A stretch of 64,000 nt of DNA from a virus: the IMG/VR virus record IMGVR_UViG_3300045988_181613; one strand, given 5' to 3'. This document shows, one piece after another, positions 30,293 to 56,401 of the stretch (position 1 is the first letter of the stretch; each line of letters opens with the position of its first letter). Position numbers and translations under genes: made by a program. The notes beneath the pieces were generated by a model. It had not been told where the DNA came from. It did not search any database and worked only from the letters and a program-made list of their open reading frames with translations.

Positions 30293-32683
30293 CTAAATTG
30301 TACAATACACGAGTTCGTGACGAGCTCTTGTTACCGCTACAAATCTCAAACATTTTTCTGAATATAATGCTTTTTCCGATGTAGCCTTCGGTGATGGGAT
30401 TAAATTTTGATTTAAAAAGAATACCCTGTCAGCTTCCAAACCCTTACTTTTATGAATAGTAGAAAGAACGATCCCTTCTGTTTCATCTACAAAAATTTCA
30501 CTGATCCTATTTCTAAGTTCAAAAATACTTGGCCATCGTTTGAACAGCAAACGAAGAATCATACATTTCTCTTCTAAAAGAGCATAACTGGGGTGATTGA
30601 TAGCAACAGCCTCTGGAATTCCTTTTTCCATCAAAGATTTTTTCTTTTCTAATAAAAGAACATCTAAGTCTTTGATTTCATTGATTTTATCCAGAATTAA
30701 TAATAAATTTTCACCAAAATCTTTTCCCTTTATTGTAGCTTTCTTTTTTAACTCTAAAAATATGATAAATGCTGCAACCAGTGGAATGTTATTACGACAA
30801 AGAACAAAATCGCCTTCTTGCGCTTCTTTCAACTCTCCATTTCTTACAACACCTTCTTGCGCAAAAGGTGAAGCTTCTATTTTATCTGCAAAGGTCTTCT
30901 TAGCTTCCGCAACGATAGCCTTATCACAACGATAGGAGATACTCAAAGGTAAAGTAATAGTATTTTCCATTCTTTTATAAGATTCAAATATTTCCACTGT
31001 ACTTCCCATAAAAGAATAAATACAATTATGCGTTAAAATACCATCAGCCACATAATTTTGATTCCATCCAACTTCTAAAGAAAAGACTTTTCCTTTATAA
31101 GAAATTTTCTCCCAATTTTCAATATCTTTATAAATAGGCTTCGCCCTTGAACATTGAGAAGCTTTGTTATAATTAAAACCATCATAAATTATTACCTGCA
31201 TTAATTCTGGAAATATATTACAAGCATATGTATTAAACATATAAGAAATACCCGTTTTCCAACGTGAATCTTCTTTTTCTTTTTTAAGAAAAGGACATTC
31301 TATTTTTCTATCAAATACCTTTAATAGATTTATTGCATTTTGTTTTAATTCCCCATTAAATCTATTAAAAAAAGTGTTAAGCCCCTCTTGACCAAACATA
31401 ACATCTTTCTCTTTTCTGCAATTAAAAATAGTTTGAGGGATTCCAAATTTATATGAATAATATAATTCATCTAACCTGGCTTGTGATTTATCATCATACA
31501 AATTTAAAAGCCAAAGTCTATCTGCCTCTTCGCAATAAAATCGAAATAAAAGTCCTCCAGATCTTTTTGCACCTGTTACATAAGGAGTAATTCCTATCCG
31601 AAACCAATCTCCTTTTTGCATTAAATAAAGAGCAAATTTATTTTTTATAGAAGGTTTCCATCGCACATAACATATATGCTCCGGTGTATATTTAGAAGTA
31701 AAATCACCTGTTGTTACTTTATAAAGAATATCATCATATTCTCTCTGGGCAATTTTTAAAATTTTACTTTTAGAATTTTCACACAATTTTTTATATTGCT
31801 GTAATGATTTTTTCTTAATACGTTCATAATTTCCGACAAAACAATTATCATGCCGATATTCATAAGAAACAACACTTTCTCCAATTTGAACGTCTTCAAT
31901 GTTTTTTTTGGTTCCATCTGACATTAAAATCTTAGTACCTTCAGGTTGACATTGATAAGGATCTCCTACTGTAATAAATCGACCTCCTGGTTTAATATAA
32001 TTCAAGATCATTTCCCTTTGCAAAATATTAGAATCTTGTGCTTCATCTGTAAACACGACCCCATACTTAGGAAAATTCTCAGAGGGTATCATCATATAAG
32101 GAATCCAAAGCATATCGGTAAAATCCATAATAAATTCACTGACTATAGAAATCTTCTTTAATTGTTTTCTCCATTCTGCTTCAATCAAAGTTATGTCCTC
32201 AATCATTCTCTCTCGAAATTCTATATCTTTTTCCCAACAAATAGGAGGTATATCGTTTCGATAATCAATCGAAAGCATTTGCCGTAAAAAATTCCAAATT
32301 ACTTGGAGTTCGAATAAATATTTAGCTTGCTTTTTACTTCCCCCCTCTATGTCGTCCAAATCTAAAACTTTCTTTCCAATTTGAAAACATTTATTCTCTG
32401 AAATCTTAAACCTTACTCGGACATTTTGTAAAAGAGTTTTTAATCCTTTACTATGAAACGTTGCCACTTCAACTTGTTCGGGAACTTTAGTTTTCAATTC
32501 TTCTGCTATACTTTTATTGAAAGCCATGAATAAAACTCTTTTTCCCGGTGAAGTTCTTTTATTTAATTCCAGTAAAGTACTACTTTTGCCAGCGCCTGCT
32601 GTTGCTTCTACAACTATATTTTTTCTGGTATTTTCATACGCATCAAAAATTGCAAGCTGATATTTACTCCATTCTTTTCCCAT
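30293..32683 (-). CDS. UvrD/PcrA-type SF1 helicase containing an intein
   Basis: Walker A ATAGAGKS; FTDEAQD; motif III split as VGDPYQ / CIYSFMGS; TIHKSKGLEADRVF; FVAVTRARHEL. Confidence 0.9.
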   Translation of the reverse strand: MGKEWSKYQLAIFDAYENTRKNIVVEATAGAGKSSTLLELNKRTSPGKRVLFMAFNKSIAEELKTKVPEQVEVATFHSKGLKTLLQNVRVRFKISENKCFQIGKKVLDLDDIEGGSKKQAKYLFELQVIWNFLRQMLSIDYRNDIPPICWEKDIEFRERMIEDITLIEAEWRKQLKKISIVSEFIMDFTDMLWIPYMMIPSENFPKYGVVFTDEAQDSNILQREMILNYIKPGGRFITVGDPYQCQPEGTKILMSDGTKKNIEDVQIGESVVSYEYRHDNCFVGNYERIKKKSLQQYKKLCENSKSKILKIAQREYDDILYKVTTGDFTSKYTPEHICYVRWKPSIKNKFALYLMQKGDWFRIGITPYVTGAKRSGGLLFRFYCEEADRLWLLNLYDDKSQARLDELYYSYKFGIPQTIFNCRKEKDVMFGQEGLNTFFNRFNGELKQNAINLLKVFDRKIECPFLKKEKEDSRWKTGISYMFNTYACNIFPELMQVIIYDGFNYNKASQCSRAKPIYKDIENWEKISYKGKVFSLEVGWNQNYVADGILTHNCIYSFMGSTVEIFESYKRMENTITLPLSISYRCDKAIVAEAKKTFADKIEASPFAQEGVVRNGELKEAQEGDFVLCRNNIPLVAAFIIFLELKKKATIKGKDFGENLLLILDKINEIKDLDVLLLEKKKSLMEKGIPEAVAINHPSYALLEEKCMILRLLFKRWPSIFELRNRISEIFVDETEGIVLSTIHKSKGLEADRVFFLNQNLIPSPKATSEKALYSEKCLRFVAVTRARHELVYCTI
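31025..31951 (-). mobile_element. Intein (309 aa, class 1) in UvrD helicase motif III
   Basis: Cys1 at 31951..31949 (CQPEGTKILMSDGTKKNIEDVQIG); block B YTPEHICYV; ends VADGILTHN (Asn codon 31027..31025) followed by Cys+1. Central ~170 aa has no LAGLIDADG or HNH motif. Confidence 0.85.
31878..31915. repeat. 38-nt stretch identical to 52673..52710 (intein block A region)
   Basis: TCTCCAATTTGAACGTCTTCAATGTTTTTTTTGGTTCC in both; encodes GTKKNIEDVQIG(E/D) of the UvrD and DnaE inteins. Confidence 0.9.
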
Positions 32684-33432: not shown

Positions 33433-36180
33433 CTACTTGGTATCTCTATAACTACTAATTAATTCTAACGATACATCATCTACAAATCCCTTATTAATTG
33501 TATCTGCAACTTCTTTCTTTTCTTTCAATAATTTCCAAATTTTCATATCAATGGTTTCAGTACTTAACAAATAATAAATATTAATGTTTGATTTTTGTCC
33601 CATTCTTTCAAGTCGACCAATCGCTTGAACTAAATCACTTGGTTTCATAGGAAGCTCAATAATTAGTGCATTAGAACAGGCTTCTTGCAAACCATCAACT
33701 CCAGTGCCAATACACTGAATATTTGCAAATAAAATTCTTGTATTTGGATCAGTAATAAACTCCTCCTTAACTTTCATCTTTTTAGAAAGAGAAAGATCCC
33801 CTGTGATCAAACAACTATTCTCTATTTGTTGAGCCATTTCTATTAAAGGTTTCTTATGGATACCGAATACAATCAATTTTTCATCTTCATTTGCTTCCAT
33901 CCATTCTTTTATAAAAACAATCATTTGTTTTTGTTTCCCTTCTACAGAAAGCTGGAACAAAACATTTAATTGAACCAATTGATCCGCTCTTAATGCTTTT
34001 TCTATCTGATCTGGATTTACCTTTTCCAAATAATTAATAAGATCTTCCTCAGCCTGTGTATAAACTTTTTTATTGCTGATTTTCATTTCAATGAGCTGTT
34101 CTGTAATAGGAGGGAGCTCGTTTAATACTTCTCTCTTTTCTTTTCTAAAATAACAGTAGTGTCTTAACAACAAATGGAGTTCTTCAATATTACTACAACA
34201 AGAAACATCCCTTCCAAACTCTGTTACTTTCGCATTACAGTACCTGAAATCAAAATAATTGCTATCTGGAAATATATCAGTAAAGCGACCTAAAAATTTC
34301 AAAACATTTTTAAGTTCGCTTGGACGATTCATTATTATTGTACCACTTAAACCAATTCGTGTATTTATTTTAGAAGCTATTTGAATAAAAGCTTGGCTTC
34401 TCATAGCTTGACGATTTTTTAGAAGGTGAATTTCATCACCTACAATTGCATAATATTTATTTTGAATAAGTTCTGGAAATTTTACAATAACTTGCTTCTT
34501 TACTTTATTCAATAATTTTTTCTCTTCAAATTTTCCCAATAAATCATAGTTGATAACAACAACATCAGCTTCCCAATTCTGTTTTTTACCTGAATTAATT
34601 ATAGAAAGAGATCTATTTGGATTCCAAAGACTCCATTCTTTTTTCCATCCTTCCTTTACTGTTGAAGGGCAAACAATAATACAGGGAAACAAATCAAGTA
34701 ATTCTAAATAAATAATGGTTTGTGCTGTATTATGTGTCAATAAGCAATCTTCTCCACAAACATATAAAGCATCAGGGTTAGATACTTTAATACACTGCAT
34801 TTCCTTTTTTCCAATATATTCAACTTTGCAAATACTTCTATTAGGTGCTGTTTTTTTTGAATCGAGCAATAAATCTCTTTTTCTTTTTAATCTACAAGGA
34901 ATTATATCAGAGGGAAGATTGATTCCAATTCTATAATGTTCTCTACATTCCACTTTTTCTTTTTTAGAATTTACATAATAACTTCTTTTAGTTCTAATAG
35001 GATTGTGTATTCCTCCCAAACTTTTAACAATAAAGCCAACTTGCTCAACCAATTTTTTAGAAGTACAACCGAACTCTATAAGACCTGATTTAGAAATATA
35101 ACCATCAGAATCTAATATTCCTTGTAAGATCGCTAAACGAATTTCTTTTTTATTATAAATATAATCTTCAGGAATTTCTTTTTCATAAGAATATTTTTCC
35201 ATTAAATTATATTGTTCCAATATTTTTTTTACTCGATTTTGTCTTTTACTTATAGAATCAATAATATTGTAATCAAGTTTCTCTCCTGTCTTTTTCAAAA
35301 AACAACCTTCTGGGAACTTTAAATAAGTCAATATTTCTTTATCCGCACAAGATACTTTGGGATTTCTCCTTAAACAACCGTCTCCAATTAAAAAACCTAA
35401 AGTATAAGGATCAAGTAAAATTTTTCTTTCTTCAAATTCAATAGGATTTTTTATTATAGGGAGTTTCCATTTCCAATATCCCTTACTTTCATGTCCTTTT
35501 ATTCTTGTATTATTGCAAGATTTACCTCTTAATGGTGCATTCATTATTTCTTTTAAAGTTATGACTTGCAATGGATTCGTTTGCTTCCATGCACGAACAG
35601 ACCAAAAATGTTCATCGCAACATTCGACTGAAGATCCATCTGTAAAAGTTACTTTATAACAATCTTTTATTCCTTGAGGATAAACAGCTTCTATTTTTTG
35701 AGAATATCCATCTGAACCAAAAATTATATCGCCAGATTTTAAATCTCCAAAATTAACTAATCCTTTAGGTGTCGGAATTTTCATATCCAAAGGCTGAGCC
35801 TTACCCAAACCTACATCTGATCCATTTATACAATTTCCATGATTAAGCATGTAATGGATACCTTCGATCTGATAATCACGAGGTATCCTTTTTAAATTTA
35901 ATTCTGGTATCAGTAGTTTAACATCTTGAATAGAAATTTTTTCTCTAATAGGAGAAAGCTTAACATCTCTTTCCCTTTCTGGATATGCTTCTTTGAATTT
36001 ATTTTCCTCAATAAATTTATTGAGTATACCAATATTCCAAATTTCGGCTTTGACATACCATTCAAAATTTGCAGGATTCCAACTTCCTTTAAACCTGTTT
36101 TTAATCTCATTTAAGAGATCTTGATTATAGTCAAAACCGAAATAATAATAACCTTTCTCCTTATAAAAATATCTTTTCAT
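33433..36180 (-). CDS. SNF2-family helicase containing an intein
   Basis: DYQIEGIHYM; motif I split as DVGLGK / TAQTIIY; DEIHLLKN; LSGTIIMNRPSEL; QAIGRLERMGQKSNINIYYL. Confidence 0.9.
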   Translation of the reverse strand: MKRYFYKEKGYYYFGFDYNQDLLNEIKNRFKGSWNPANFEWYVKAEIWNIGILNKFIEENKFKEAYPERERDVKLSPIREKISIQDVKLLIPELNLKRIPRDYQIEGIHYMLNHGNCINGSDVGLGKAQPLDMKIPTPKGLVNFGDLKSGDIIFGSDGYSQKIEAVYPQGIKDCYKVTFTDGSSVECCDEHFWSVRAWKQTNPLQVITLKEIMNAPLRGKSCNNTRIKGHESKGYWKWKLPIIKNPIEFEERKILLDPYTLGFLIGDGCLRRNPKVSCADKEILTYLKFPEGCFLKKTGEKLDYNIIDSISKRQNRVKKILEQYNLMEKYSYEKEIPEDYIYNKKEIRLAILQGILDSDGYISKSGLIEFGCTSKKLVEQVGFIVKSLGGIHNPIRTKRSYYVNSKKEKVECREHYRIGINLPSDIIPCRLKRKRDLLLDSKKTAPNRSICKVEYIGKKEMQCIKVSNPDALYVCGEDCLLTHNTAQTIIYLELLDLFPCIIVCPSTVKEGWKKEWSLWNPNRSLSIINSGKKQNWEADVVVINYDLLGKFEEKKLLNKVKKQVIVKFPELIQNKYYAIVGDEIHLLKNRQAMRSQAFIQIASKINTRIGLSGTIIMNRPSELKNVLKFLGRFTDIFPDSNYFDFRYCNAKVTEFGRDVSCCSNIEELHLLLRHYCYFRKEKREVLNELPPITEQLIEMKISNKKVYTQAEEDLINYLEKVNPDQIEKALRADQLVQLNVLFQLSVEGKQKQMIVFIKEWMEANEDEKLIVFGIHKKPLIEMAQQIENSCLITGDLSLSKKMKVKEEFITDPNTRILFANIQCIGTGVDGLQEACSNALIIELPMKPSDLVQAIGRLERMGQKSNINIYYLLSTETIDMKIWKLLKEKKEVADTINKGFVDDVSLELISSYRDTK
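34729..35799 (-). mobile_element. Class 3 intein (357 aa) with LAGLIDADG endonuclease, in SNF2 motif I
   Basis: Starts with Ala (AQPLDMKIPTPKG, codon 35799..35797). Block B CDEHFW (Trp at B:12); block F MQCIKV (Cys at F:4); ends LLTHN (Thr at G:5; Asn codon 34731..34729) with Thr+1. LAGLIDADG motifs LGFLIGDGCL and LQGILDSDGYI. Confidence 0.8.
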
Positions 36181-36653
36181 TTATTCTTAAACACCTTTAC
36201 CAATACAAGAATTATAATTCCAAGAACTATTAAGGCTCCACTTGTAAATCCTTTCCAAAACCAATTCCATTTATTGGGAGCTGCTTTAACTTCTTCTTGT
36301 AATTGTTCATTCTGCTTATTGACCTTCGTTAATTCTTCAGTTAATACTTGGATCTTCAATTCTAAACTATCACAAGATGCAGTTACAAGTAACGTCCCAT
36401 CTTCTTGTTTCTCAACCGAGACAGTTGCTTGTCCTTTTTTCTCTTCTTTCTTCTCACCTACATCTAACTTATCTGGAAGTACAACTAAAGGTACATATGA
36501 TCCTGGTATTTTTATCAAACTATCTCCTGATGTTTTTTTCCAATACAAAGAATCATTTAAAGTTACAGTGAGATTAGTATTCTTGGTAGGAGTACTTCTA
36601 CAACCTACCAAGATACACATAAACACAAATACTATGCAAAACAGTTTCTTCAT
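36177..36653 (-). CDS. Lipoprotein with C-terminal TM anchor (u-spanin-like topology)
   Basis: MKKLFCIVFVFMCILVGC lipobox; coiled coil LELKIQVLTEELTKVNKQNEQLQEEV; C-terminal TM GFTSGALIVLGIIILVLVKVF. Confidence 0.55.
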   Translation of the reverse strand: MKKLFCIVFVFMCILVGCRSTPTKNTNLTVTLNDSLYWKKTSGDSLIKIPGSYVPLVVLPDKLDVGEKKEEKKGQATVSVEKQEDGTLLVTASCDSLELKIQVLTEELTKVNKQNEQLQEEVKAAPNKWNWFWKGFTSGALIVLGIIILVLVKVFKNK

Positions 36654-37960
36654 TTTTCAATAGTGATTAGTTCACTTGCATATGGAAGTGACTCGATCCA
36701 TTCACAAAATTCATGCCATACTGGCAATCTATGATTTTTTCTTTGAAAATAGATCCTACGAAGTGTCTGATAAGAAAATACTTGGATTCTTTTTTGAATA
36801 AAAGATTCTGGAAGTAATTCTTTGATCCTTCGTACATATTCGAAATCTTCGGTTTCTTGATACATAGAGGCTAATTCGTTGATAGAATCAATAGTCTGCT
36901 CATATATAGAAGCTAAACGAAACCAATAAGCAAGCTCTGAATCATATTGATCTAACTTTCCTTCAGTATATTTCCATATAAAAGACGAATCTACATTATA
37001 TAATTCAGCAATTTCTTTTAAAGTTTTACCTTCTTTCCTGAGACTTTTCCATTCTTTTATAGAATCATCAGACCATTTCGAAGAATTTTTAAAAGCAAGA
37101 TATCTTTGATGTAAAGTAGTCTCTCTTAAACCTGTATCAAAAGCATGTTTAGTGTTAATACTACTTGTACACCATTCAAGATTCGACGGAGAACAATTCC
37201 CTTTGTTACCATCAATATGATTTACAACTGGAAATTCATTAGGATTTGGACAAAAAGCCTCAGCTATTATTCTGTGAACAGAATAAGTTTTACCATTTAT
37301 CTTTCCTCCTAATCTCACTTGATAATAACCTTGTTGATTTCTAGTTACACCCAATTTGATTTTCTTCTTTTCAAAGTGTCGGATTCTTTTAATTCCGTTT
37401 CCCAAATCTTCTTCTCTATCGTAAGGCAAAGAAAAGATTTCTCCGTTATTCCATATCTCATATTCTCTACCTCCGTAAACTTTGACAATACTCTTTAATT
37501 CTTTAGGAGTTTCAAAAAACAAAGGCTGAATGATTCTTTCTTCTTTCTTAGGATCTAACATATCGACAACGATATCAGGTACATCAAAATTTCTGATAGA
37601 GAGATTTCCTTTACCTATTGTATGCATCGTCGATTCAGAAGATAGACGATCAGTCCCAACTCTATATGTGTCCAATTCTTGCCATATTTCTCTAGGGGCT
37701 TCAATTTCTGCATATACTTGCAATCCTCTGATAGCTTTCGCATGTTCATCACCTCTTTTGACAAGAGTTGACATAAGTTGCAAGTCTCTTTCATCAATAC
37801 AAAAATTACTTTTAAATGAGAGTCCTGTGCCCCTTGATGCCGGACCAGGAAGCCATTCTGCATCACTTCTCATTTCTTTACCAAAAGGCAATCTTAACGC
37901 TGCTAATACACTGACAAACCCTGCGATTTCCAATGTCGAAATCTTGAATCTTTCTTTCAT
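36650..37960 (-). CDS. ThyX-like (FAD-dependent thymidylate synthase fold) protein with degenerate catalytic motifs and an in-frame HNH endonuclease insertion
   Basis: DERDLQLMSTLVKRGDEHAKAIRGLQVYAEIEAPREIWQELDTYRVGTDRLSSESTMH parallels the ThyX core around RHR/SxRY. C-terminal VFSYQTLRRIYFQRKNHR parallels the ThyX NxRxLxxFxxxR helix. Confidence 0.6.
   Translation of the reverse strand: MKERFKISTLEIAGFVSVLAALRLPFGKEMRSDAEWLPGPASRGTGLSFKSNFCIDERDLQLMSTLVKRGDEHAKAIRGLQVYAEIEAPREIWQELDTYRVGTDRLSSESTMHTIGKGNLSIRNFDVPDIVVDMLDPKKEERIIQPLFFETPKELKSIVKVYGGREYEIWNNGEIFSLPYDREEDLGNGIKRIRHFEKKKIKLGVTRNQQGYYQVRLGGKINGKTYSVHRIIAEAFCPNPNEFPVVNHIDGNKGNCSPSNLEWCTSSINTKHAFDTGLRETTLHQRYLAFKNSSKWSDDSIKEWKSLRKEGKTLKEIAELYNVDSSFIWKYTEGKLDQYDSELAYWFRLASIYEQTIDSINELASMYQETEDFEYVRRIKELLPESFIQKRIQVFSYQTLRRIYFQRKNHRLPVWHEFCEWIESLPYASELITIEK
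36941..37489 (-). mobile_element. NUMOD4 + HNH_3 + HTH endonuclease module fused in frame inside the ThyX-like ORF (approximate limits)
   Basis: YEIWNNGEIFSLPY; YSVHRIIAEAFCPNPNEFPVVNHIDGNKGNCSPSNLEWCTSSINTKHA; GKTLKEIAELYNVDSSFIWKY. No intein junction residues at either side. Confidence 0.65.
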
Positions 37961-37967
37961 TTTTCTG

Positions 37968-39878
37968 CTATAAAGTTAATAATATATTTTCAAATTCTTC
38001 CGTATTTAGGATTGTAATTCCTAATTCCTGGGCTTTTTTAATTTTAGAAGAAGAACTATTCTTATCTTTTACAATAAGATGTGTGGTATTCTTTGAAACA
38101 CCGCTTACTACTTTATGCCCTTTATTTATAAGAGTATTCTCCCATTCTTTATTTCTGAAACCTGAAAAACAAACCGCTATTTGATTTTCAGCTGCTTCAA
38201 TTTTTTTATTCCAAACCATTGAAATTTTAATAGGATCTGCGTCTAACATAGAATATCTCTTGATACCTTCATTAAACACCATTGCAGTTGTTTCAGCCAC
38301 GCCTTCAATTGAAATTAGAATTTCAATAGGAAGTTCTTTAAGATCTAAAACACGTTCCATTGCAAACTCAGGTAACTTATCAAAAATCATTTGACAGGTC
38401 TTTTCACCAAAAGTTCCATTGAAAACATTGTAGGCTGTTAATAATTTAGCAAACGGAACTCCTTCTGATTTTAATTTACCGAATTGGTTAGTTAAACTTT
38501 CAACTAATGAAGCTCCAATTCCTTCGATTTTATCAAAATGTATTACATTAGAAATGATATCGTTTACAGTCTGATATCCCGCTTCGTAAATTTTTCGAAT
38601 TGTCGGTTCTCTAAAATTATCTATTCCCAATGTAGTAAAAAAGAAAACAAGCTTCTGTATTTTCTTTTCTTTACAATCAGAATTTGTACAAACGAGTTCC
38701 GTCATTGTATTATCCCATACTAACGGTTCTCCACAAGAAGGACAAATCATCATATTATCCATTTCACGCCTTCTGTCCTCTGCATTGGAACGAATAGTTT
38801 TAATGTGTTTAGGAATAACATCTCCTGATCTTGCAATTACGATAACAGCATTTTCACAAATATCGTTATCACAAAGATATCTCGCATTATGAGCGGTTGC
38901 TCTTTGAACTGTTGCACCACAAAGATCGATAGGATCAAAAATCAATACTGGTTTTGATTTTCCATCTTTGGAAATATTCCATTCGATTTTTTTTACAATC
39001 GTTTCTGCTCTCTCTGACCATTCTGGATTTTTAAAAGCAACTGCATAGCGAGGATTACCATTAGGCAAGCGACCAAGTTTCTTCCTCAAAAGAGAATTAT
39101 TAACCTCAATAACAAGCCCGTCACACTTATATTCATTCAAATTCTTGAAAATACCATCTAAGAATTTTAAAATAGAAGCATTATCATTATTAAAAACACT
39201 GGCTGTTGTAACCCAATACGAAGTACAATAGTTGAATATTCTTTGTATTTCATCCAGTTGAACTACTTTATCAAGATCATCCCTTGAAGTCCCATAACGC
39301 ACATATTGCACATGCTGCAACATGTCTTTATTTATATCCGGGGAATTAAATAATCCTGCTACACAATTCCGAGCCGATTTATATTCACCCTTATTTTTTA
39401 AGAAATCTCTTATTGGGAAAATCGCTTCACCAAAAGTATATTCAAAACATCCAGGTTTAGTTGCATTGATGACTCCATTTTGGATAGCTTCATAATGTTC
39501 ATCTGAACGTTGTCCTTCCACTCCGTCTCCTCTTGTATACGCTTCACGCGACCATTCGTCAACACAAAGACTAATTCCGTCATACTTAGGAGTAATAATA
39601 ACTTTATCAGTTGGTGTAAGTTGCCAGTTATTTTGAATAAATTTCTTTAACTCCTCAACATCTTTAATTTTTTCCAGAGAATACATAGGAATGGGAAGTT
39701 TTTCCATTCGTGTATTAGATTTCTCTATTATTCCTCTTTCAAAAATTTTATTTCCAGGATCCATACTTTTAAGTTGATCTATCAATAGATCATACTCAGT
39801 ATCACTAATTAAAGGCTCACCTTTTCGATAAGCTTCATTACAAGTGATAATTCTTTTTTCTAACTCTTTTACTGTCAT
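37968..39878 (-). CDS. ligA: NAD-dependent DNA ligase
   Basis: 636 aa; adenylation motif PKYDGISL; Zn finger CPSCGEPL...CTNSDC; HhH region; C-terminal BRCT-like AVCFSGFRNKEWE...THLIVKD. Confidence 0.9.
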   Translation of the reverse strand: MTVKELEKRIITCNEAYRKGEPLISDTEYDLLIDQLKSMDPGNKIFERGIIEKSNTRMEKLPIPMYSLEKIKDVEELKKFIQNNWQLTPTDKVIITPKYDGISLCVDEWSREAYTRGDGVEGQRSDEHYEAIQNGVINATKPGCFEYTFGEAIFPIRDFLKNKGEYKSARNCVAGLFNSPDINKDMLQHVQYVRYGTSRDDLDKVVQLDEIQRIFNYCTSYWVTTASVFNNDNASILKFLDGIFKNLNEYKCDGLVIEVNNSLLRKKLGRLPNGNPRYAVAFKNPEWSERAETIVKKIEWNISKDGKSKPVLIFDPIDLCGATVQRATAHNARYLCDNDICENAVIVIARSGDVIPKHIKTIRSNAEDRRREMDNMMICPSCGEPLVWDNTMTELVCTNSDCKEKKIQKLVFFFTTLGIDNFREPTIRKIYEAGYQTVNDIISNVIHFDKIEGIGASLVESLTNQFGKLKSEGVPFAKLLTAYNVFNGTFGEKTCQMIFDKLPEFAMERVLDLKELPIEILISIEGVAETTAMVFNEGIKRYSMLDADPIKISMVWNKKIEAAENQIAVCFSGFRNKEWENTLINKGHKVVSGVSKNTTHLIVKDKNSSSSKIKKAQELGITILNTEEFENILLTL

Positions 39879-40389
39879 TTTTCTTCGGTAATTTGTGAAA
39901 GTTGTGCCCTCAATCCTTCAATGGAATCACATCGATTAGGAACGATTTTTTCTGCTTTATCTACCTTTTCAATGAGAATTTTGTATGCTTCAGGGAATTG
40001 TTCTTGTAATTGTTTATACGTATTGATTGTATCAAGAACACAACTTGACTTCCCTCGAATCTCTTTTCTGGTTTTCTCCAATCTCATAATCTTGGGAAGG
40101 ATTGTATTCTTAATTTTTTCACAACCTTTACTTGCATTAAAACGATCCCAAAATTCTGGAATTGCACCACTAACTTTTGGTTGAGATAATGGAATATGAC
40201 AACCTTCTATTTTATGCATTAAGCACTTTATGTAATTGTAATAAAACCCCTTTTCGATATTGCAAACATTAGGGTACTTCTCGGCGAACTCGAGAACTTC
40301 TTTTGGTGTATTTGCTACGACAAACTCATCTACTACCTCACCGATTTCTTTACGATCTTTTCTTTTTGATACTGTGCTATTCGTGCCAT
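39875..40389 (-). CDS. Hypothetical protein encoded in two frames; needs a -1 shift at an A5 run
   Basis: Track ORF 39875..40219 stays open upstream without an ATG (…KDRKEIGEVVDEFVVANTPKEVLEFAEKYPNVCNIEKGFYYNYIKCLMHKIEG). ATG 40389 (MARIAQYQK) is in the other frame. The frames meet at A-run 40363..40367. Confidence 0.45.
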
Positions 40390-40392
40390 AAT

Positions 40393-40710
40393 TTAAAATT
40401 TATCATTTGTTATTGATTTATACCATTCAAACTGATCATGAGAGAAAGAGAAATTTCTTTTCTCAATACTTAGAATTCTTTGTTCCAGAATTACTTTATC
40501 TTGGATTACAGTATGTGCTCCAAAGTTTTCAATAATACTGGTAACCTCTCTTCCTCCCATAACTTCATTAGCAAAGAAGTCTCTTGACTTGGGTCTAAAA
40601 TCATCAAAAGTATAAAATTTTATACTTCCAAATTGGCCAACAACTATGAGCTGTTTTTCCATAGCACGAACAAAAGCCCATGCATTTTCTATAAGATTAT
40701 CTACTGTCAT
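40393..40710 (-). CDS. Hypothetical protein
   Basis: 105-aa ORF. Confidence 0.55.
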   Translation of the reverse strand: MTVDNLIENAWAFVRAMEKQLIVVGQFGSIKFYTFDDFRPKSRDFFANEVMGGREVTSIIENFGAHTVIQDKVILEQRILSIEKRNFSFSHDQFEWYKSITNDKF

Positions 40711-41721: not shown

Positions 41722-42059
41722 TTCAACATAATTTTATCATAAAAATTTTTCGTTACCCATTTAAGATCTCCTCTATTTAAAATCTTAACAACTTTAAATA
41801 AGAGCGGACCTTTAAATGGATATAATCCACATACAAATATAGAGCCCCAATTTGCTCTACCGCCATGGGGAGCACAAATTGGCCCCTTTTTGGATTTATC
41901 ATGTAAAATCATAGCTTTCATCCTGTAGGTCCTTTTATCTGTCTTTACCTTATAATTAACCTCACAGCCTCGATATTGAGCTCTAACTATTTTACTTCCA
42001 CCTTTACCTATAAAGATATCTGTATTTGCATCCTTCGAATATCTTACTGAATATTTCAT
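41718..42059 (-). CDS. Hypothetical protein
   Basis: 113-aa ORF. Confidence 0.55.
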   Translation of the reverse strand: MKYSVRYSKDANTDIFIGKGGSKIVRAQYRGCEVNYKVKTDKRTYRMKAMILHDKSKKGPICAPHGGRANWGSIFVCGLYPFKGPLLFKVVKILNRGDLKWVTKNFYDKIMLK

Positions 42060-44038
42060 ACCACTCTACTTATTCCGTCCACCTTTTCAACTTTTAAGGC
42101 AGCACATTTTACATTTTGATTACTTACCTGAGTCGTAATTAAAACAGGATACTGTATAAAATTTAACGCCTCAATTACATTATAGAGACCTTCTTCTGAG
42201 AGACCTTCTGTGATCTCATCCAGATAAAGTAATTTCAATCCACCATATCTATTTGTTGCGTTAATCATTGTTTGAATTGCCAAAATTAACGCAATTTCTA
42301 CCCGAGCTCTTTCACCTCCTGAATAATACCAGAAACTTTCTGCCTGCTCCCGAAATACATAAGGTGTTATTTCATCCTTTACATTTCCTTTTGAATCCTT
42401 TTTGAAAGATTCGATGATTAATCTCAAATCACTTCGTTCTTTCTGAAGAATTGTATTCGCCTGTGCTTGTATATTTTTAATTTGCTCAATAGCCAAGTAC
42501 ATTTTAAATTCCTTAAATCTATTGATCCATTGATTCTTCTTGAAAATCTGATCCGTAATTTCCGTGATCTTATCAGATTCAACTTTAATATTACCAGTAA
42601 TTTCCGTGATCTTATCTTCAATGAATTTGGTATCAATATCTTTAATTTCTTCATCTACTTGATTGATCTTCTTTTCCAAACTTTCAACTTCTTTCGCTCT
42701 ATCTTCCAATAAAGTTAAAGCATTTTCATTTCTTTCCGTTATAGATTTCATTTTCAATCTTACAGAAGATAAATCAGAAGTTGCTGATGAAATTTGATTT
42801 TCTAATCCTCGGATTTTATTGCGGGCTTCTTCCTCTTCTTCTTCCACAGAGTTTTTAGCGGTAATATAATCAGAAATTACAGCTTCATATTCTTTTAATT
42901 GATTAGTAATTTCCACATCACGTGCTGCTAAATCTTTATCCTCTTTGAATAATTTTTTCTGTTTTGCAAGTTCCAATTCTAAAGAGGTATCTTTCAATGT
43001 CAAAAATTCATGTTTACATTTAGGACAGGTAATTTTCCCTGCTAAATTGATGTGAATTTTCTGAAGTTCTTGTTTAATTTTCCCTCTTGTATGATTATTA
43101 ATTTCTTGCTTATTCAAATAGGTGTTTTGGCTTTCCTTTAATTGGAAAAGCTCATCTTTCAATTCCTTAATCGTTTCCTGGAAAGAAGTGATATCTGGAA
43201 GATCCTTTCTTTTATTTTCTAAGAGTTTTAAAAACTCCTCTTTTTCAGCCGCTTTCCTCGATAATTCATTATAAGTTTGATTTCTTTCTTCAATACCCTT
43301 ATCAATTGTTTCGACTTCATCCGCCAGTGCGTGGATCTTAGCTTCATAAGATGCAATTTTTTCTTCCCGCTCCTTTTTTAGATCTCGATTTAATTCCTTT
43401 TCCAATTGCTCTGAATAAACAATAAGCTTACCTTCCAGAATATTCTTTTCTTGTTCATAAGATCGTTTCTTTGCGTTTAAAGCATCGATCTGTGAATTGA
43501 TAACATCTTTCGTTTCGTCTATATAAGAAAAGTTAATAAAACGACTTATAAGAGCTAATTTCTCAGTATTTGAAGATCTGAAGAAAGACTTATAACATTC
43601 TTTGCAAATGATATAATAACTTTTCAGATCTTCTGGAGAAATTGCTAACCATTCTAAAATAAACCTATTACCATCCATAACATTGGCAAAATTCACTGGA
43701 TTACCATTTATTTTTAATGATAATTTACTACTCCCTTTAATAGGAATAGTCCTTTGAATTTCCAAGGTTTCTTTTCTTTGAGGGCAATAAGTTTCCAGAA
43801 GAACCCAAGCTTCTTCCGTTCCTCTTCGAACTAATTTTCTATCCAATACATTACGGATATTATTTCCTGTATATGCATAATAGATCATTTGTTGGATTCC
43901 AGATTTACCAGAACCATTACCCCCTTGATCTTCCTCTGTCTTATTATCCCCTGAAAGTGCTATAACACGATCTTCAAAAGAATATTTCAAATGAGCCCAG
44001 GAGAGGAAGTTCTTTGCTTCTAAATTAATCGGTTTCAT
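42056..44038 (-). CDS. sbcC: Rad50/SbcC-type ATPase
   Basis: Walker A GGNGSGKS; long coiled coil with central zinc hook CPKC; signature YSGGERARVEIAL; Walker B LLYLDEITEGL. Confidence 0.85.
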   Translation of the reverse strand: MKPINLEAKNFLSWAHLKYSFEDRVIALSGDNKTEEDQGGNGSGKSGIQQMIYYAYTGNNIRNVLDRKLVRRGTEEAWVLLETYCPQRKETLEIQRTIPIKGSSKLSLKINGNPVNFANVMDGNRFILEWLAISPEDLKSYYIICKECYKSFFRSSNTEKLALISRFINFSYIDETKDVINSQIDALNAKKRSYEQEKNILEGKLIVYSEQLEKELNRDLKKEREEKIASYEAKIHALADEVETIDKGIEERNQTYNELSRKAAEKEEFLKLLENKRKDLPDITSFQETIKELKDELFQLKESQNTYLNKQEINNHTRGKIKQELQKIHINLAGKITCPKCKHEFLTLKDTSLELELAKQKKLFKEDKDLAARDVEITNQLKEYEAVISDYITAKNSVEEEEEEARNKIRGLENQISSATSDLSSVRLKMKSITERNENALTLLEDRAKEVESLEKKINQVDEEIKDIDTKFIEDKITEITGNIKVESDKITEITDQIFKKNQWINRFKEFKMYLAIEQIKNIQAQANTILQKERSDLRLIIESFKKDSKGNVKDEITPYVFREQAESFWYYSGGERARVEIALILAIQTMINATNRYGGLKLLYLDEITEGLSEEGLYNVIEALNFIQYPVLITTQVSNQNVKCAALKVEKVDGISRVV

Positions 44039-45047
44039 CTTCTTCCTCCTTTGCTTCAGCCTCTTGAATAGCTTGTGTAGTTAAATCCTTTATTTCTTCT
44101 AACAAAGCAGAATCCTTTGCTAAAATCTCACGAACATTTGCCATACCTTGACCTAAACGATAAGAATCATCTCCTGATCCATAATAAAAGAAAGAACCTT
44201 TTTTAGTACAGATTTTATATTCAATCGCTAAATCAACAATTTCTTGTATCTGGTCGAAACCTATACCAAAACGAATCAAAATATCACATTTCCTGTAAGG
44301 TTTTGCTACTTTATTTTTCTTTACAGTGATTCGTGTTTTATTAGCAACGGTTTCCTCACCTTCTTTTTCAGAACCGATTCTTGCCATTTCAGCTCTTTGA
44401 CTGGAATAAAATCTTAATGCCCTACCTCCAGGAGTTTGAGTAGTAGCCGCTCCAAATCCAAAACCTCCGCCTACTTTATCTCGAATTTGATTAATACAAA
44501 ACAAGATGCAATTATTTTTCTTGCAAATATTTTTTAAAATATTTAATTGAGCAGACATTAATCTTGCTACTAAGGCCACTTTAGCATCCCCTGCTTCACC
44601 CATTAAAGTAGCAGTGGGAGTCAAGCCTGCAACGGAATCTAATACTACAAGACCAATAGCTGGTTCTTCACACATAATACGAACGATTTCCATTGCCTGT
44701 TCTGCATTATCTGGCTGAGATAAAATAAATTTTTCATCACTCATATCCAATCCAAGAGATTGCATATATTCAGGATCCATTGCCTGTTCAACATCCACGT
44801 ATCCGACTGCACGACCGGTTTTTTGCATTTCAACAGCTGCATGAATAGCTGCAGTAGTTTTCCCACAAGACTCTGGTCCATAGATTTCAATAATACGACC
44901 AATCGCCCAACCTCCACCTAAAGCTATATCTAATCCGAAAGAACCAGAATGTAAAAAATCAACATTTGCTGTTCCATGAGAAACAGCTTCTTTTCCAAAT
45001 TTCTTTTCGATTCGAGAAATCAAATCTTTAACCCCGTTTGTCGCCAT
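44025..45047 (-). CDS. recA: RecA recombinase
   Basis: SGSFGLDIALGGGWAIGRIIEIYGPESCGKTT...VGYVDVEQAMDPEY: near-canonical RecA core. Confidence 0.95.
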   Translation of the reverse strand: MATNGVKDLISRIEKKFGKEAVSHGTANVDFLHSGSFGLDIALGGGWAIGRIIEIYGPESCGKTTAAIHAAVEMQKTGRAVGYVDVEQAMDPEYMQSLGLDMSDEKFILSQPDNAEQAMEIVRIMCEEPAIGLVVLDSVAGLTPTATLMGEAGDAKVALVARLMSAQLNILKNICKKNNCILFCINQIRDKVGGGFGFGAATTQTPGGRALRFYSSQRAEMARIGSEKEGEETVANKTRITVKKNKVAKPYRKCDILIRFGIGFDQIQEIVDLAIEYKICTKKGSFFYYGSGDDSYRLGQGMANVREILAKDSALLEEIKDLTTQAIQEAEAKEEEDETD

Positions 45048-48625: not shown

Positions 48626-50633
48626 TTAAACAATACTCATCCCAATAAACTCAGTATAATTACTTGTCTGAAGCACATATTCATCATGGAATTTATTATA
48701 TAAAATAAAGCCATTTAACAATAAAAGATTTCCTTCACAACCTCTCAAAAATTCACCATAATCTTCGAAAAGTTCTGGATAAACAAGCACTTTTATAAAC
48801 TCATAATTACTTTCAAGAACTAAATTACAGAATGGTCCTTTTTTAGATTTTCTCTCTTGAATCTCTAAAACATAACCTCCCATTGCAACTTGATTGTCAG
48901 AAGTGGCTTTCCATTTCTTCAAATCTTCAGCACTTATAAAATTGACATCCTTTCCAATATTCGGAGAAAGATAAGTCTTTACAAGTGTTTTATAATCAAA
49001 GAAACCAAAACCTGATTTTTTCTTTTGTTGCAGTTGCCACCACCATTCTAAAGATGTTTTTCCTTTTTCATGCGCAATTGTATAGTCATCTTTAGTAGGA
49101 TCGATCTTAACCTTTTGATTTTTCCTATACTGTTGCAATAAGGTTTCTCTCTGTAAAAACGGTGAACCATCACTTTGATTTAATTTATCAAAAGCACCTG
49201 AATAAATTAAATTTTCTATGACAGATTTATTTACAGCCGATCCTTTAAAAAGATGCCTGTCAAGAAATTCTTCAAAAGAAAAATAAGGTCCATTTTCTTT
49301 CCTTTCTGAAATAAGTTGCGCCTGTGCTTTTTCTCCAACCTGATCGACTGAATTTAATGCCCAATACATACTATTGGTGGTAGGATCACTTATAATATTT
49401 ATCTCAGATTTGTTGATGTCAACTGGACGAATTTCTATATCACCAGAATTTCTAATCTCATTAATATAATAAGGGAAATCATCCATACTACCTCGACTAA
49501 ATGCTACTGACCAAAATTCAATAGGATAATGAACTTTCAGCCATTCACAATTATATCCATTTATTGAGTAAGCTACTGAATGCGACTTATTAAATAAATA
49601 AGAGGAAGCTTTTACAATTTCATCCCAAAAATCCTTTGCATATTCTGGTGTAACGCCATGACGAGAACAATATCCTTCAATAAACTTTGTTTCCAAAGAT
49701 TTAATTACATCGATCTTTTTCTTACCCATTGCCTTACGAGCAGTATCACAAGTAACAAGATCCATTCCAGCTAATTCATGCATCAAAGCCATTACCTGTT
49801 CTTGATATACAAATAAGCCGTAAGTCTGCCCTAATATTTCTTCTGTTCCTATATGATATTCTACTTCTCGTTCTCCAGATCTTCTAAGTAAGTACTCATT
49901 GTGGAAATTATTTTCTATTGTACCAGGACGATATAAAGCTGCGCAGTCGCTAAGTTCATCAATACTCGAAGGACCCATCTGAACACAATAAGAAGACAAA
50001 CCTTTTGCACCAAAGTGAAATACATCTCCTAAGAACCCTTTCTGGAAATAAGAAAAAACTTTTTTATCATCCAGAGGAATATCTTTGTAGAGATCGATTC
50101 TTTTTCCGTGATGTTCTTCAACAAGATTCAATATATCTGTAAATTTATCCAATTGCTCAATTCCAAGAACGTCTTCTTTTAAGAAACCAGCAGCATCTAA
50201 TTCCCCACCTTCCCATTCACTGACAATCATATCTTTTTGCTTTCGAACAGGCACCCACTCATACATTGTTTTATTATCAGGGAAAATCATCATAGCGCAT
50301 GCATGAATAGAAGCTGCTTTTGGTTGTCCGAGAATAAGTAACATGTCATTGAACATGTCCGAGTACTTCTTCACAAAGTTTCTCAATTCCTCACTGGCAC
50401 AAACTGTTTTCCAAAAGTCATCTGCTGTTTTTTCTTTTTCTAATCCTAATTTACTGGTAAATCGTCTAACCGTAGGAATATCAACTCCTTCTTGACGGCA
50501 AAGGTCTGTTATAGCTGCCTTTAATTGCAAAGTAGTATAGGTACCTACGGAACATACTTGTGATTGACCGAATCTTTGTTCCATATATTCTTTTACTAAA
50601 GGACGTTGTTCTCCACCGAAGTCAGTATCGACT
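48626..50633 (-). CDS. dnaE: DNA polymerase III alpha subunit, C-terminal coding segment (3' exon)
   Basis: The frame is open from just after a TGA (50636..50634): (V)VDTDFGGEQRPLVKEYMEQRFGQSQVCSVGTYTT. It aligns residue-for-residue with the DnaE catalytic PDxDxDF...R..V..Y....YG...TFGT block. There is no start codon before Met 50584. Confidence 0.85.
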
Positions 50634-50701
50634 CACTCAAATATCCGGCAGCGACCCACCTTGAAGTCTTTGCCGGATATTCTTCTTTATAGTTTTAATT
50701 G

Positions 50702-51487: not shown

Positions 51488-51509
51488 TTAAAATTTTATC
51501 GTTCTTCTG

Positions 51510-56379: not shown

Positions 56380-56401
56380 TTTCGTTCTTATTTTAATACT
56401 A

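What the first reader, a model, noticed from the sequence alone, without database searches (positions are those of the whole stretch)
36650..37960. ThyX-fold gene with degenerate catalytic motifs and an intein-less, in-frame HNH endonuclease insertion
Seen: the N-terminal 115 aa and C-terminal 95 aa parallel ThyX (DERD...LVKRGDEH...APREIW... and ...VFSYQTLRRIYFQRKNHR). However, the ThyX signature RHRxxxxxxxxSxRY is replaced by (Y)RVGTDRLSSESTMH. At best the first Arg and the Ser are kept, and the RY pair is lost. Between the two halves, about 180 aa encode a complete NUMOD4 + HNH_3 + HTH module in the same frame. The junctions show no Cys/Ser/Thr...HN intein residues and there is no frame change. 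Established: those Arg residues bind dUMP in ThyX, and homing endonucleases normally avoid disrupting hosts by riding in introns or inteins or by being free-standing. Inference: either the host protein tolerates a nuclease domain in a surface loop (a rarely described arrangement), or this ThyX homologue has changed or lost function. A changed function would be relevant in a phage that already rewrites its guanines.
Basis: partly seen in the sequence, partly recalled or inferred. Interest (0 to 1): 0.65.

Follow-up and report, generated by a model that had tools for sequence, protein, structure and literature searches.

The report
Mobile nuclease domain inside ThyX-like gene
A phage gene for an uncharacterised relative of the thymidylate synthase ThyX carries a selfish DNA-cutting (HNH) domain that is translated as part of the protein instead of being spliced out, and comparison with sister phages shows that this insert has moved between genomes.

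Summary
ORF 36650-37960 (-) encodes 436 aa. Its two ends form a ThyX fold and its middle is an I-HmuI-type HNH nuclease.

- **Translated, not spliced.** There is no intein domain and no group I intron match. All 42 diverged HNH-bearing homologues keep one reading frame. Measurable dN/dS is below 1 in every insert segment, and HNH residues are invariant.
- **Mobile.** A near-isogenic phage (L001, 97-100% identical around the gene) carries a 184-aa insert-free allele. The window differs from it only in a ~1.37 kb patch: the 821-nt insert, 72 nt to its left and ~480 nt to its right. That patch matches a different lineage (L004/L005), as homing with co-conversion predicts. Two further occupied/empty pairs and in-frame decayed copies exist.
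- **Divergent host family.** The missing RHR...SxRY motif is not decay caused by the insert. It is shared by a family of about 3,200 clusters that fails the Pfam Thy1 threshold but keeps its own invariant residues. dUTPase is its commonest neighbour. I found no link to the 7-deazaguanine genes.

Verdict: a splice-free, in-frame homing HNH in a surface loop of a divergent ThyX-fold protein. This is a new variant of a known kind. The family's biochemical function is unknown.

The parts
36650..37960 (-). Whole ORF, 436 aa: a ThyX-fold protein with an in-frame HNH module
   Evidence: ORF list. AlphaFold model pLDDT 85.5. Structural matches to I-HmuI and ThyX.
37622..37960 (-). ThyX-like N-terminal half (aa 1-113). 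It ends in ...DTYRVGTDRLSSESTMH, the counterpart of the ThyX motif.
   Evidence: Alignments A1/A2. hhalign to TM0449 and to a ThyX profile. 97-100% identical to the insert-free phage L001 up to codon 89.
37622..37693 (-). Left co-converted flank (codons 90-113): donor-like (L004) rather than L001-like
   Evidence: Site-by-site three-way alignment. dS between the window and L004 falls from 1.9 (codons 1-89) to 0.22 here.
37523..37621 (-). Host loop element TIGKGNLSIRNFDVPD... (aa 114-146). It is present in long and 246-aa alleles and absent from short alleles. It aligns with the ThyX 'EFYIP' loop.
   Evidence: hhalign. Comparison of P0070 with P0050. Column conservation, with F125 in 42 of 42 long forms. 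dN/dS 0.2-0.36 where measurable.
36923..37522 (-). HNH homing-endonuclease module (aa 147-346): NUMOD4-like beta region, HNH core and helix-turn-helix tail
   Evidence: Pfam HNH_3. phrog_59. I-HmuI by sequence and by structure. Absent from the 246-aa allele P0070. H229, H248, G251, N260 and N269 invariant in 42 of 42 long forms.
37151..37282 (-). HNH_3 catalytic core (aa 227-270), ...VVNHIDGNKGNCSPSNLEWCTSSIN...
   Evidence: Alignment to I-HmuI. Invariant columns.
36797..36922 (-). Two host helices (aa 347-388) that correspond to ThyX helices alpha4/alpha5. They include the invariant K380, the counterpart of ThyX R147.
   Evidence: Model helices 344-370 and 373-382 at pLDDT about 90. hhalign. 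dN/dS 0.08-0.34.
36650..36796 (-). ThyX-like C-terminal part (aa 389-436 plus the stop codon). It contains R407, the counterpart of ThyX R174.
   Evidence: Alignments. 96% identical to L005 but only about 74% to L001.
36800..37620 (-). The 821-nt segment that replaces a 66-67-nt linker in the short (insert-free) alleles of sister phages
   Evidence: blastn of the window against L001. The same replacement, 823 nt for 67 nt, separates L004 from L005.
36320..37693 (-). Gene-conversion patch of about 1.37 kb, of L004/L005-type sequence inside an L001-type genome (insert plus both co-converted flanks)
36177..36653 (-). Downstream 158-aa ORF with a lipoprotein-like signal. It is chimeric: donor-like in its first ~110 codons and L001-like at its 3' end. 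The right end of the conversion tract lies at about 36314-36325.
   Evidence: Alignment. Identity profile.

Best explanation
**What it is.** The gene encodes a member of a large, uncharacterised phage family that has the ThyX fold but not the ThyX flavin/dUMP signature.

**Where the nuclease sits.** An I-HmuI-type HNH homing endonuclease (NUMOD4-like region, HNH core and HTH tail, aa 147-346) is inserted in frame. The insertion point is the surface loop between the strand carrying the motif counterpart and helix alpha4. Canonical ThyX has a long variable loop at the same place.

**How the host survives.** The insert is neither an intron nor an intein. It is translated and stays as a separate folded domain, and the two ThyX-like halves pack together around it, so the host protein remains functional.

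**How it spreads (inferred).**
1. In a mixed infection, the nuclease domain cuts or nicks an allele that lacks the insert.
2. The break is repaired by recombination using the occupied allele as template. The phage encodes its own RecA, helicases and ligase.
3. Repair copies the insert together with neighbouring DNA.

**What is shown and what is inferred.**
- Shown: the fold, the in-frame coding constraint, the presence/absence polymorphism, and the conversion patch with co-converted flanks.
- Inferred: that the HNH domain makes the initiating cut, where it cuts, and that the fusion protein is enzymatically active.

**Host family function.** It is probably binding or conversion of a pyrimidine nucleotide such as dUMP. 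This rests on the retained counterparts of ThyX R174 and R147, the many invariant basic residues, and the frequent dUTPase neighbour. It is unlikely to be canonical flavin-dependent thymidylate synthesis.
For: **Fold.**
- Structural matches to ThyX and I-HmuI.
- hhalign E 2.2e-5 over the whole domain.

**Not spliced.**
- No Hint or intein match in this ORF, although Pfam does find inteins in neighbouring genes of the same window.
- No Rfam match at E<=1 in 36000-38600.
- 42 long homologues, 48-93% identical to the window protein in alignment A2, all keep one frame.
- dN/dS is 0.08-0.55 wherever dS was measurable, in every insert segment including the linkers.
- There is no conserved internal start codon.

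**Nuclease intact.** H229, H248, G251, N260 and N269 are invariant in 42 of 42 long forms.

**Mobility.**
- The window is 97-100% identical to L001 up to codon 89. It then follows L004/L005 through the insert, the C-terminal part and most of the next ORF, and returns to L001-type at about 36320.
- L004 and L005 are 96-97% identical around a clean replacement of 67 nt by 823 nt.
- A third pair, L008 and L025, shows the same pattern.
- Long and short forms are intermixed on the tree of codons 1-89: 26 state changes among 121 taxa.
- Decayed in-frame copies exist: P0033, P0036 and P0039.

**Host still under selection.**
- Flank dN/dS is 0.04-0.18 between HNH-bearing alleles.
- Family-invariant residues are kept in long forms.
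Against: - No transcript or protein data exist, so cryptic RNA or protein processing is excluded only by argument.
- Nuclease activity and target site are untested.
- The mosaic could in principle come from ordinary homologous recombination without the nuclease.
- The recombination junctions show only 6-10 nt of identity between the available representatives. The true parents must therefore have differed from L001, L004 and L005.
- The window protein is not found identically in any other assembly, so the mosaic allele itself is seen once. An assembly chimera is unlikely for the same reason: no long shared k-mers exist at the junctions.
- ThyX is a tetramer with active sites at subunit interfaces. 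Whether four nuclease domains are compatible with the oligomer was not modelled.
Confidence: 0.7

Rival explanations
1. Domesticated fusion. The HNH domain no longer acts as a selfish element. It has been recruited as a working part of the ThyX-like protein, for example as a nuclease tethered to a nucleotide-sensing tetramer and used against host or competitor DNA.
For: The nuclease is strongly conserved and always in frame. HNH-bearing alleles make up 42 of the 121 closest homologues. The host flanks stay conserved.
Against: The insert is polymorphic between near-isogenic phages. Decayed and deleted copies keep the host frame. Most of the family lacks the insert. Related HNH genes are free-standing next to the same gene in other phages. 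These are the marks of a selfish element, not of a fixed functional domain.
Confidence: 0.12
2. Ordinary mosaicism. The patch and the patchy distribution come from general homologous recombination between co-infecting phages. The HNH domain is an inactive passenger.
For: The genomes are mosaic elsewhere too, with several other gene-presence differences between the window and L001.
Against: In three independent pairs the exchanged tract is centred on the insert, and identity returns to background within 0.1-0.5 kb. The catalytic residues are invariant and under purifying selection, which is not expected for an inert passenger.
Confidence: 0.1
3. Cryptic splicing. The insert is removed as a group I intron whose ORF happens to read through, or as an atypical intein.
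For: I-HmuI, the closest solved relative, is encoded in an intron (from my knowledge of the SPO1 system). The genome carries several inteins.
Against: - There is no Rfam match.
- The segments on either side of the HNH module are coding, with measurable dN/dS of 0.08-0.36, and fold as confident helices.
- Those segments align with ThyX's own loop and helices, and they persist in alleles that have lost the HNH module.
- There is no Hint domain.
- The junctions lack an N-terminal Cys/Ser and a His-Asn followed by Cys/Ser/Thr (read directly from the sequence).
Confidence: 0.03
4. The host protein is a genuine thymidylate synthase that uses an atypical motif, and the insert is simply tolerated.
For: - dUTPase is the commonest neighbour (17 of 80 loci).
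- No ThyA or ThyX was found in the window by tblastn.
- Counterparts of R174 and R147 are retained.
- Some viral ThyX sequences fetched here carry YKH in place of RHR.
Against: In the register that fits the predicted secondary structure, counterparts of R78, H79, R90, Y91, E86, N163, R165 and N169 are all replaced, and this holds family-wide. The family fails the Pfam and TIGRFAM ThyX thresholds.
Confidence: 0.15

Closest known systems
ThyX / flavin-dependent thymidylate synthase (Pfam PF02511 Thy1; T. maritima TM0449, PDB 1o26)
   Same: - Same fold.
- Profile-profile alignment over the whole domain.
- Counterparts of G52, E54, P69, R80, R147 (as Lys) and R174.
- The same order of secondary-structure elements.
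- The long forms keep the 'EFYIP'-like loop and helix alpha4.
   Different: - Below every curated sequence threshold.
- The RHR...SxRY motif and most flavin-contacting residues are replaced.
- The family has its own invariant set: R23, H73, K75, R78, E95, Y99, S110, K380, Q406, R407, H410 and R411.
- Many members are shortened to about 181 aa by loss of the loop and alpha4.
I-HmuI-type HNH homing endonucleases (Pfam HNH_3 with NUMOD4; PDB 1u3e)
   Same: Sequence and structural similarity over the HNH core and the following helices. The catalytic His and Asn are conserved. The distribution and co-conversion pattern are those of a homing element.
   Different: I-HmuI is a separate protein encoded inside a group I intron (my knowledge). 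Here the nuclease is a domain of the host polypeptide, and no splicing element is present.
ShiLan-domain insertion in a mycobacteriophage DNA methylase (Arsenault, Gosselin and Gogarten 2025, PMC11855218)
   Same: An insertion in a phage gene that leaves the host frame open. It has no detectable intron or intein features, shows a homing-like distribution, contains an HNH endonuclease, and is predicted to loop out of the host protein.
   Different: In ShiLan the HNH is read in a different frame from the host, and the in-frame product is a featureless hairpin. Here the HNH is in the host frame and is made as part of the host protein. This study also finds conversion tracts and decayed copies.
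LAGLIDADG endonuclease genes fused in frame to mitochondrial rps3 in ophiostomatoid fungi (Gibb and Hausner 2005, as cited in PMC7902536)
   Same: A homing endonuclease coding sequence fused in frame to a host protein-coding gene, without its own intron or intein.
   Different: A different nuclease family and a different biological setting. As far as I recall, those are terminal fusions that displace or duplicate the host 3' end, not a domain nested in an internal loop that the host fold closes around.
Free-standing phage homing endonucleases (for example T4 mobE and the seg genes; PMC2790892)
   Same: Gene conversion that carries flanking DNA along. Related HNH genes lie free-standing beside the same ThyX-like gene in L022, L052 and L062.
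   Different: Free-standing genes sit between host genes. This one sits inside the host reading frame.

Membership tests
ThyX (flavin-dependent thymidylate synthase, PF02511/TIGR02170) | ThyX fold | tested here: met
   Structural search: ThyX fills ranks 2-50 for the full ORF and 1-50 for the short homologue, with TM up to 0.67. Viral ThyX models also match.
ThyX (flavin-dependent thymidylate synthase, PF02511/TIGR02170) | Score above the curated family threshold | tested here: not met
   No Thy1 match for the ORF or for 36 short homologues. HMMER profiles do not reach PDB ThyX chains. The best result is a distant member, P0255, at 21.7 bits against a cutoff of 24.8, and TIGR02170 at 15.4 bits against 87.9.
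ThyX (flavin-dependent thymidylate synthase, PF02511/TIGR02170) | ThyX motif RHRxxxxxxxSxRY | tested here: not met
   RHR corresponds to T98-Y99-R100. SxRY corresponds to S108-E-S110-T111 in the ungapped register, or has K117 at the R90 position in the hhalign register. The same holds in all family alignments.
ThyX (flavin-dependent thymidylate synthase, PF02511/TIGR02170) | dUMP-binding arginines R90, R147 and R174 | tested here: inconclusive
   R174 corresponds to the invariant R407. R147 corresponds to the invariant K380. R90 corresponds to S110 or K117, depending on the register.
ThyX (flavin-dependent thymidylate synthase, PF02511/TIGR02170) | Bound FAD and dTMP synthesis | not testable with these tools
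   Needs spectroscopy, an activity assay or complementation.
HNH homing endonuclease, I-HmuI type (PF13392 HNH_3) | HNH_3 domain above threshold with the catalytic His and Asn | tested here: met
   39.7 bits against a cutoff of 24.8. Alignment to I-HmuI. H248, N260 and N269 invariant in 42 of 42 long forms.
HNH homing endonuclease, I-HmuI type (PF13392 HNH_3) | Presence/absence polymorphism with co-conversion of flanks (homing signature) | tested here: met
   Three near-isogenic occupied/empty pairs and a conversion patch. Homoplasy on the host tree.
HNH homing endonuclease, I-HmuI type (PF13392 HNH_3) | Site-specific cleavage of the empty allele | not testable with these tools
   Needs purified protein and substrate DNA.
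Intein | Hint/splicing domain, with N-terminal Cys/Ser and C-terminal His-Asn followed by Cys/Ser/Thr | tested here: not met
   No Hint or Intein_splicing match in this ORF, whereas the same search finds inteins in the UvrD, SNF2 and Pol III genes of the window. The junction residues are H113|T114 and F387|I388, or P146|L147 and W346|F347, with no His-Asn. The model shows no Hint-like fold.
Group I intron with an in-frame ORF | Ribozyme core in non-coding sequence flanking the ORF | tested here: not met
   No Rfam match at E<=1. The flanking segments are coding (measurable dN/dS 0.08-0.36), are confidently folded, and are homologous to ThyX elements.
Group I intron with an in-frame ORF | Removal from the transcript | not testable with these tools
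   Needs RT-PCR or RNA-seq.
Non-splicing HNH insertion elements in phage genes (ShiLan type, PMC11855218) | Insertion that keeps the host frame open, has no splicing features, has a homing-like distribution and encodes an HNH | tested here: met
   compared.
Non-splicing HNH insertion elements in phage genes (ShiLan type, PMC11855218) | HNH encoded in an alternative frame, hidden from the host frame | tested here: not met
   Here the HNH is in the host frame.

The most novel reading that the evidence does not exclude
The ThyX-fold host family is a new, flavin-independent enzyme of pyrimidine-nucleotide metabolism or modification in gut and rumen phages. In addition, the nested HNH domain has been co-opted, so that a nucleotide-binding tetramer carries four nuclease domains and serves the phage (for instance against competitor or host DNA) as well as propagating itself.
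Probability: 0.12. Interest if true: 0.8.

Novelty: new variant of a known kind. Interest (0 to 1): 0.6.

Why it matters
**A third way for homing endonucleases to avoid harming their host gene.**
- They are thought to do this by hiding in introns or inteins, or by sitting between genes.
- This locus shows another route in natural populations. The nuclease lives as a folded domain in a tolerant surface loop of the host protein, with no splicing.
- The whole homing cycle is visible in sequence data: occupied alleles, empty alleles, conversion tracts and decayed copies.
- That makes it a tractable system for asking how much structural tolerance can replace splicing.
- It is also a caution for annotation pipelines, which would call this gene simply an "HNH endonuclease".

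**A large unstudied family.** The work also defines a family of about 3,200 clusters at 50% identity. It is ThyX-derived, has lost the flavin/dUMP signature, is strongly conserved, and often lies beside dUTPase. It is a candidate for new nucleotide chemistry in phages.

Tried and rejected
- **HMMER profiles against PDB and Pfam.** Profiles of the family (A3 and A4) found no ThyX. Only structure comparison and profile-profile comparison show the relationship.
- **hhalign against a single TM0449 sequence.** It gave only a partial alignment. A small ThyX profile built from 11 viral-contig sequences was needed.
- **DNA search of GenBank phages.** No close relative was found. Annotated relatives of the short form are all "hypothetical protein".
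- **NCBIfam.** Nothing useful.
- **Literature searches.** Searches for ThyX with HNH insertion, ThyX with 7-deazaguanine, and "ThyX-like" found nothing about this family.
- **Exact look-up of the window protein in other assemblies.** No hit.
- **DNA-level insertion junction for the HNH module alone.** I compared L187 (P0050) with L188 (P0070). They are only 71-75% identical, so the junction is defined only at protein level.
- **A fixed left end of the conversion tract as a pointer to the cut site.** Considered because the window and L004 both switch near codon 89-90. Rejected as a rule because the L008/L025 tract runs to the start of the gene.
- **Strict covariation of residues 90-93 with the type of insert.** Considered and rejected. 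Long and 246-aa forms elsewhere also carry the aromatic pattern.
- **Global MAFFT alignment of L008 with L025.** It misaligned inside the gene, so the blastn figures are used instead.
Full report
**1. What is in the sequence**

The minus strand carries one uninterrupted ORF at 36650..37960, 436 aa long. It lies in a replication and nucleotide-metabolism block in which all genes point the same way:
- RecA at 44025-45047
- NAD-dependent ligase at 37968-39878
- an SNF2 helicase at 33433-36180
- RNase H and a UvrD helicase further downstream

The middle of the ORF is a nuclease:
- Pfam HNH_3 matches aa 227-270 (E 3.6e-10, 39.7 bits against a cutoff of 24.8).
- PHROG HNH family phrog_59 matches aa 154-374 (E 5e-41).
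- I-HmuI (PDB 1u3e) matches aa 209-294 (E 4e-12).

The two ends match a PHROG of unknown function, phrog_6721, in two stretches. They match no Pfam family.

**2. The flanks have the ThyX fold**

- An AlphaFold model of the whole ORF, built on 74 homologues, has mean pLDDT 85.5.
- Against the PDB, its best match is I-HmuI (E 3e-6). Every further match in the top 50 is ThyX.
- Alignments that bridge the insert give TM-scores of 0.6-0.67 normalised to H. pylori ThyX. The two halves are therefore predicted to close up around the nuclease.
- The model of a 181-aa insert-free homologue matches only ThyX in the top 50 (E 3e-5, TM 0.5-0.64).
- In the viral structure library it first matches unnamed gut-virome proteins and then viral ThyX.

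Sequence evidence is weaker:
- HMMER profiles of the family do not reach ThyX.
- One distant member has a sub-threshold Thy1 match (21.7 bits against 24.8).
- A profile-profile comparison with 11 ThyX sequences gives E 2.2e-5 and probability 76% over 177 columns covering the whole domain. I checked my T. maritima reference sequence against PDB 1kq4.

**3. The motif**

The alignments give these correspondences:

| ThyX (T. maritima) | Window protein | Note |
|---|---|---|
| R78-H79-R80 | T98-Y99-R100 | only the third position is kept |
| R147 | K380 | invariant Lys |
| R174 | R407 | invariant Arg |
| S88, R90, Y91 | S108, S110, T111 | ungapped register, which fits the predicted strand 103-108 |
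| R90 | K117 | hhalign register, which inserts eight residues |

In either register the ThyX signature is absent.

This is a property of the whole family, not of this gene:
- The same residues are invariant or nearly so in short, long and distant members.
- The family is large: 3,236 clusters at 50% identity with E<=0.001.

The motifs are therefore "different and conserved", not "degenerate".

**4. What exactly is inserted**

Homologues come in several lengths. Among the 121 closest there are 75 short forms (about 181 aa), 42 long forms (about 435 aa) and 4 intermediates.

- **Distant members.** Members of about 225-245 aa, and the 246-aa allele P0070, contain the segments TIGxxxLTIxDFxV... 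and ...IxxINxLxxxY...IKxLLPESFxQ. hhalign aligns these with the ThyX 'EFYIP' loop and helices alpha4/alpha5. Window aa 114-146 and 347-388 are therefore host elements.
- **The nuclease module proper.** P0070 compared with the long form P0050 shows a clean absence of about 190 aa between ...ETT and FREA.... This defines the HNH module as window aa 147-346 (nt 36923-37522).
- **Short alleles.** They lack the loop, the module and alpha4 together, and have a 22-aa linker instead.

**5. The insert is translated, not spliced**

- Pfam finds no Hint or intein domain in this ORF. The same library finds inteins in the UvrD, SNF2 and Pol III alpha genes of this window.
- The junction residues are not intein-like.
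- Rfam finds nothing at E<=1 in 36000-38600.
- All 42 long homologues, 48-93% identical to the window protein, keep one frame.
- Against L004, and against L008 where synonymous change is not saturated, dN/dS is below 1 in every segment:

| Segment | dN/dS |
|---|---|
| left linker | 0.20-0.36 |
| NUMOD4/HNH | 0.08-0.16 |
| HTH tail | 0.23-0.55 |
| right helices | 0.08-0.34 |

- No internal Met is conserved, so the nuclease is most simply made as part of the fusion protein.
- H229, H248, G251, N260 and N269 are invariant in 42 of 42 long forms.

**6. The insert is mobile**

*Window versus L001.*
- L001 is a contig with the same gene order that carries the 184-aa short allele.
- It is 97-100% identical to the window from 900 nt upstream of the gene to codon 89.
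- Codons 90-113 of the window are L004-like.
- The 821-nt segment 36800-37620 has no counterpart in L001.
- The next ~480 nt, covering the C-terminal part and most of the following 158-aa ORF, are only 54-80% identical to L001 but 96% identical to L005.
- From about 36320 the window is L001-like again.
- Elsewhere L004 and L005 are only 65-75% identical to the window and have a different gene order.

*Second pair.* L004 (long) and L005 (short) belong to one lineage. They are 96-97% identical on both sides of a replacement of 67 nt by 823 nt.

*Third pair.* L008 (long) and L025 (short) have flanks 88-93% identical, while the N-terminal part of the gene is only 77% identical.

*Wider pattern.*
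- On a neighbour-joining tree of codons 1-89, long and short forms need 26 state changes among 121 taxa, against 37 for random labels.
- P0033 and P0036 are in-frame deletions of the NUMOD4/HNH core. P0039 has lost nearly the whole module.
- Related HNH genes lie free-standing beside the same gene in L022, L052 and L062. The L062 copy is 34% identical to the insert over 184 aa.

Together these are the stages expected of a homing element: invasion, co-conversion, decay and loss.

*Is the mosaic an assembly artefact?* That is unlikely. The representatives share only 6-10 identical bases at the two junctions. However, the exact window allele is not seen in another assembly.

**7. The host protein stays functional**

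- Between HNH-bearing alleles, dN/dS is 0.12-0.18 in the N-terminal part and about 0.04 in the C-terminal part.
- All family-invariant residues are present in the long forms.

**8. What the family may do**

- In 80 viral-contig loci the commonest neighbour is dUTPase: 17 loci, usually just upstream (also L187).
- A MazG-like protein recurs in six loci. I named it by eye from the sequence, not from a family search.
- The window has no dUTPase, ThyX or ThyA detectable by tblastn.
- With the retained counterparts of R174 and R147 and many invariant Arg, Lys and His residues, a pyrimidine-nucleotide ligand is the best guess.
- Loss of most flavin-contacting residues argues against canonical ThyX chemistry.
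- The window does carry FolE, QueD, QueE and QueC at 55.6-61.7 kb. Nothing ties the ThyX-like gene to them.
- Family members occur in gut and rumen metagenome bins of many phyla. The host of this phage is not established.

**9. Comparison with what is known**

- **ShiLan insertion in a mycobacteriophage methylase.** This is the closest described case: a non-splicing, homing-like insert with an HNH, but read in another frame (PMC11855218).
- **Fungal mitochondrial rps3.** In-frame fusion of LAGLIDADG genes to this host gene is a second precedent (PMC7902536).
- **What I did not find.** I found no description of an I-HmuI-type HNH nested in frame in an internal loop of a host enzyme with the host fold closing around it, nor of this ThyX-derived family. 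The paper library is limited to open-access texts.

**10. Verdict**

- The element is best described as a splice-free, in-frame homing HNH domain in a divergent ThyX-fold protein.
- Confidence in the composite explanation is about 0.7.
- Novelty: a new variant of a known kind.
- Interest: 0.6.

Noticed in passing
window 30293-32683 (-): The UvrD-type helicase is 796 aa and carries an intein (weak, sub-threshold Intein_splicing and Hom_end_hint matches). The orthologues in L001, L004 and L005 are 487-488 aa without it, so this is another presence/absence polymorphism of a mobile element.
   Followed up: partly
window 33433-36180 (-): The SNF2 helicase is 915 aa and has a LAGLIDADG-containing intein. 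The same insert is present in L001, but the L004/L005 orthologues are 555 aa.
   Followed up: partly
window 48626-54096 (-): DNA polymerase III alpha is split across two ORFs. ORF 51787-54096 has the PHP and N-terminal part, then weak, sub-threshold intein and Hint matches and a GIY-YIG nuclease domain. ORF 48626-50584 holds the rest. An unassigned 261-aa ORF lies between them. The layout resembles the 'fractured gene' arrangement with split inteins (PMC2677866).
   Followed up: no
window 42056-44038 (-): This 660-aa protein has no Pfam match. Its positional counterparts in L005 and L185 are 1020-1029 aa with a LAGLIDADG match, which suggests an intein that this window lacks.
   Followed up: no
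window about 39875-40440 (-): The gene upstream of the ligase has a weak Nmad5 (nucleotide-modification-associated domain 5) match. It is 186 aa in L001. In the window a 46-nt deletion shifts the frame, leaving a 114-aa ORF at 39875-40219. It is a likely pseudogene or an assembly error.
   Followed up: yes
window 55588-61698 (-): A set of 7-deazaguanine precursor genes: QueC (55588-56412), GTP cyclohydrolase I (59595-60269), a radical-SAM QueE-like gene (60275-61114) and a QueD/PTPS gene (61111-61698). No transglycosylase was identified in the ORFs I scanned.
   Followed up: partly
window 24406-24903 (-): A free-standing HNH_3/NUMOD4 endonuclease of 165 aa. It is 44% identical to the inserted HNH core over 68 aa.
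   Followed up: partly
window 36177-36653 (-); L001 7050-7388: The ORF downstream of the finding has a lipoprotein-like signal (MKKLFCIVFVFMCILVGC). It is a chimera of donor-type and L001-type sequence. L001 has an extra 112-aa gene between this ORF and the SNF2 gene that the window lacks.
   Followed up: partly
L022 3141-4947; L052 4001-5662; L187 51-512: In other phages the ThyX-like gene lies directly after, or within about 2.5 kb downstream of, a dUTPase gene. In L022 and L052 a free-standing HNH gene also lies in the same cluster. dUTPase is the commonest neighbour overall (17 of 80 loci).
   Followed up: partly
L090-L100 (viral contigs with canonical ThyX): Several viral ThyX sequences fetched as a reference set carry YKH in place of the RHR of the ThyX motif, with an insertion before the SGRY part. 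The motif is therefore less universal than usually stated.
   Followed up: no
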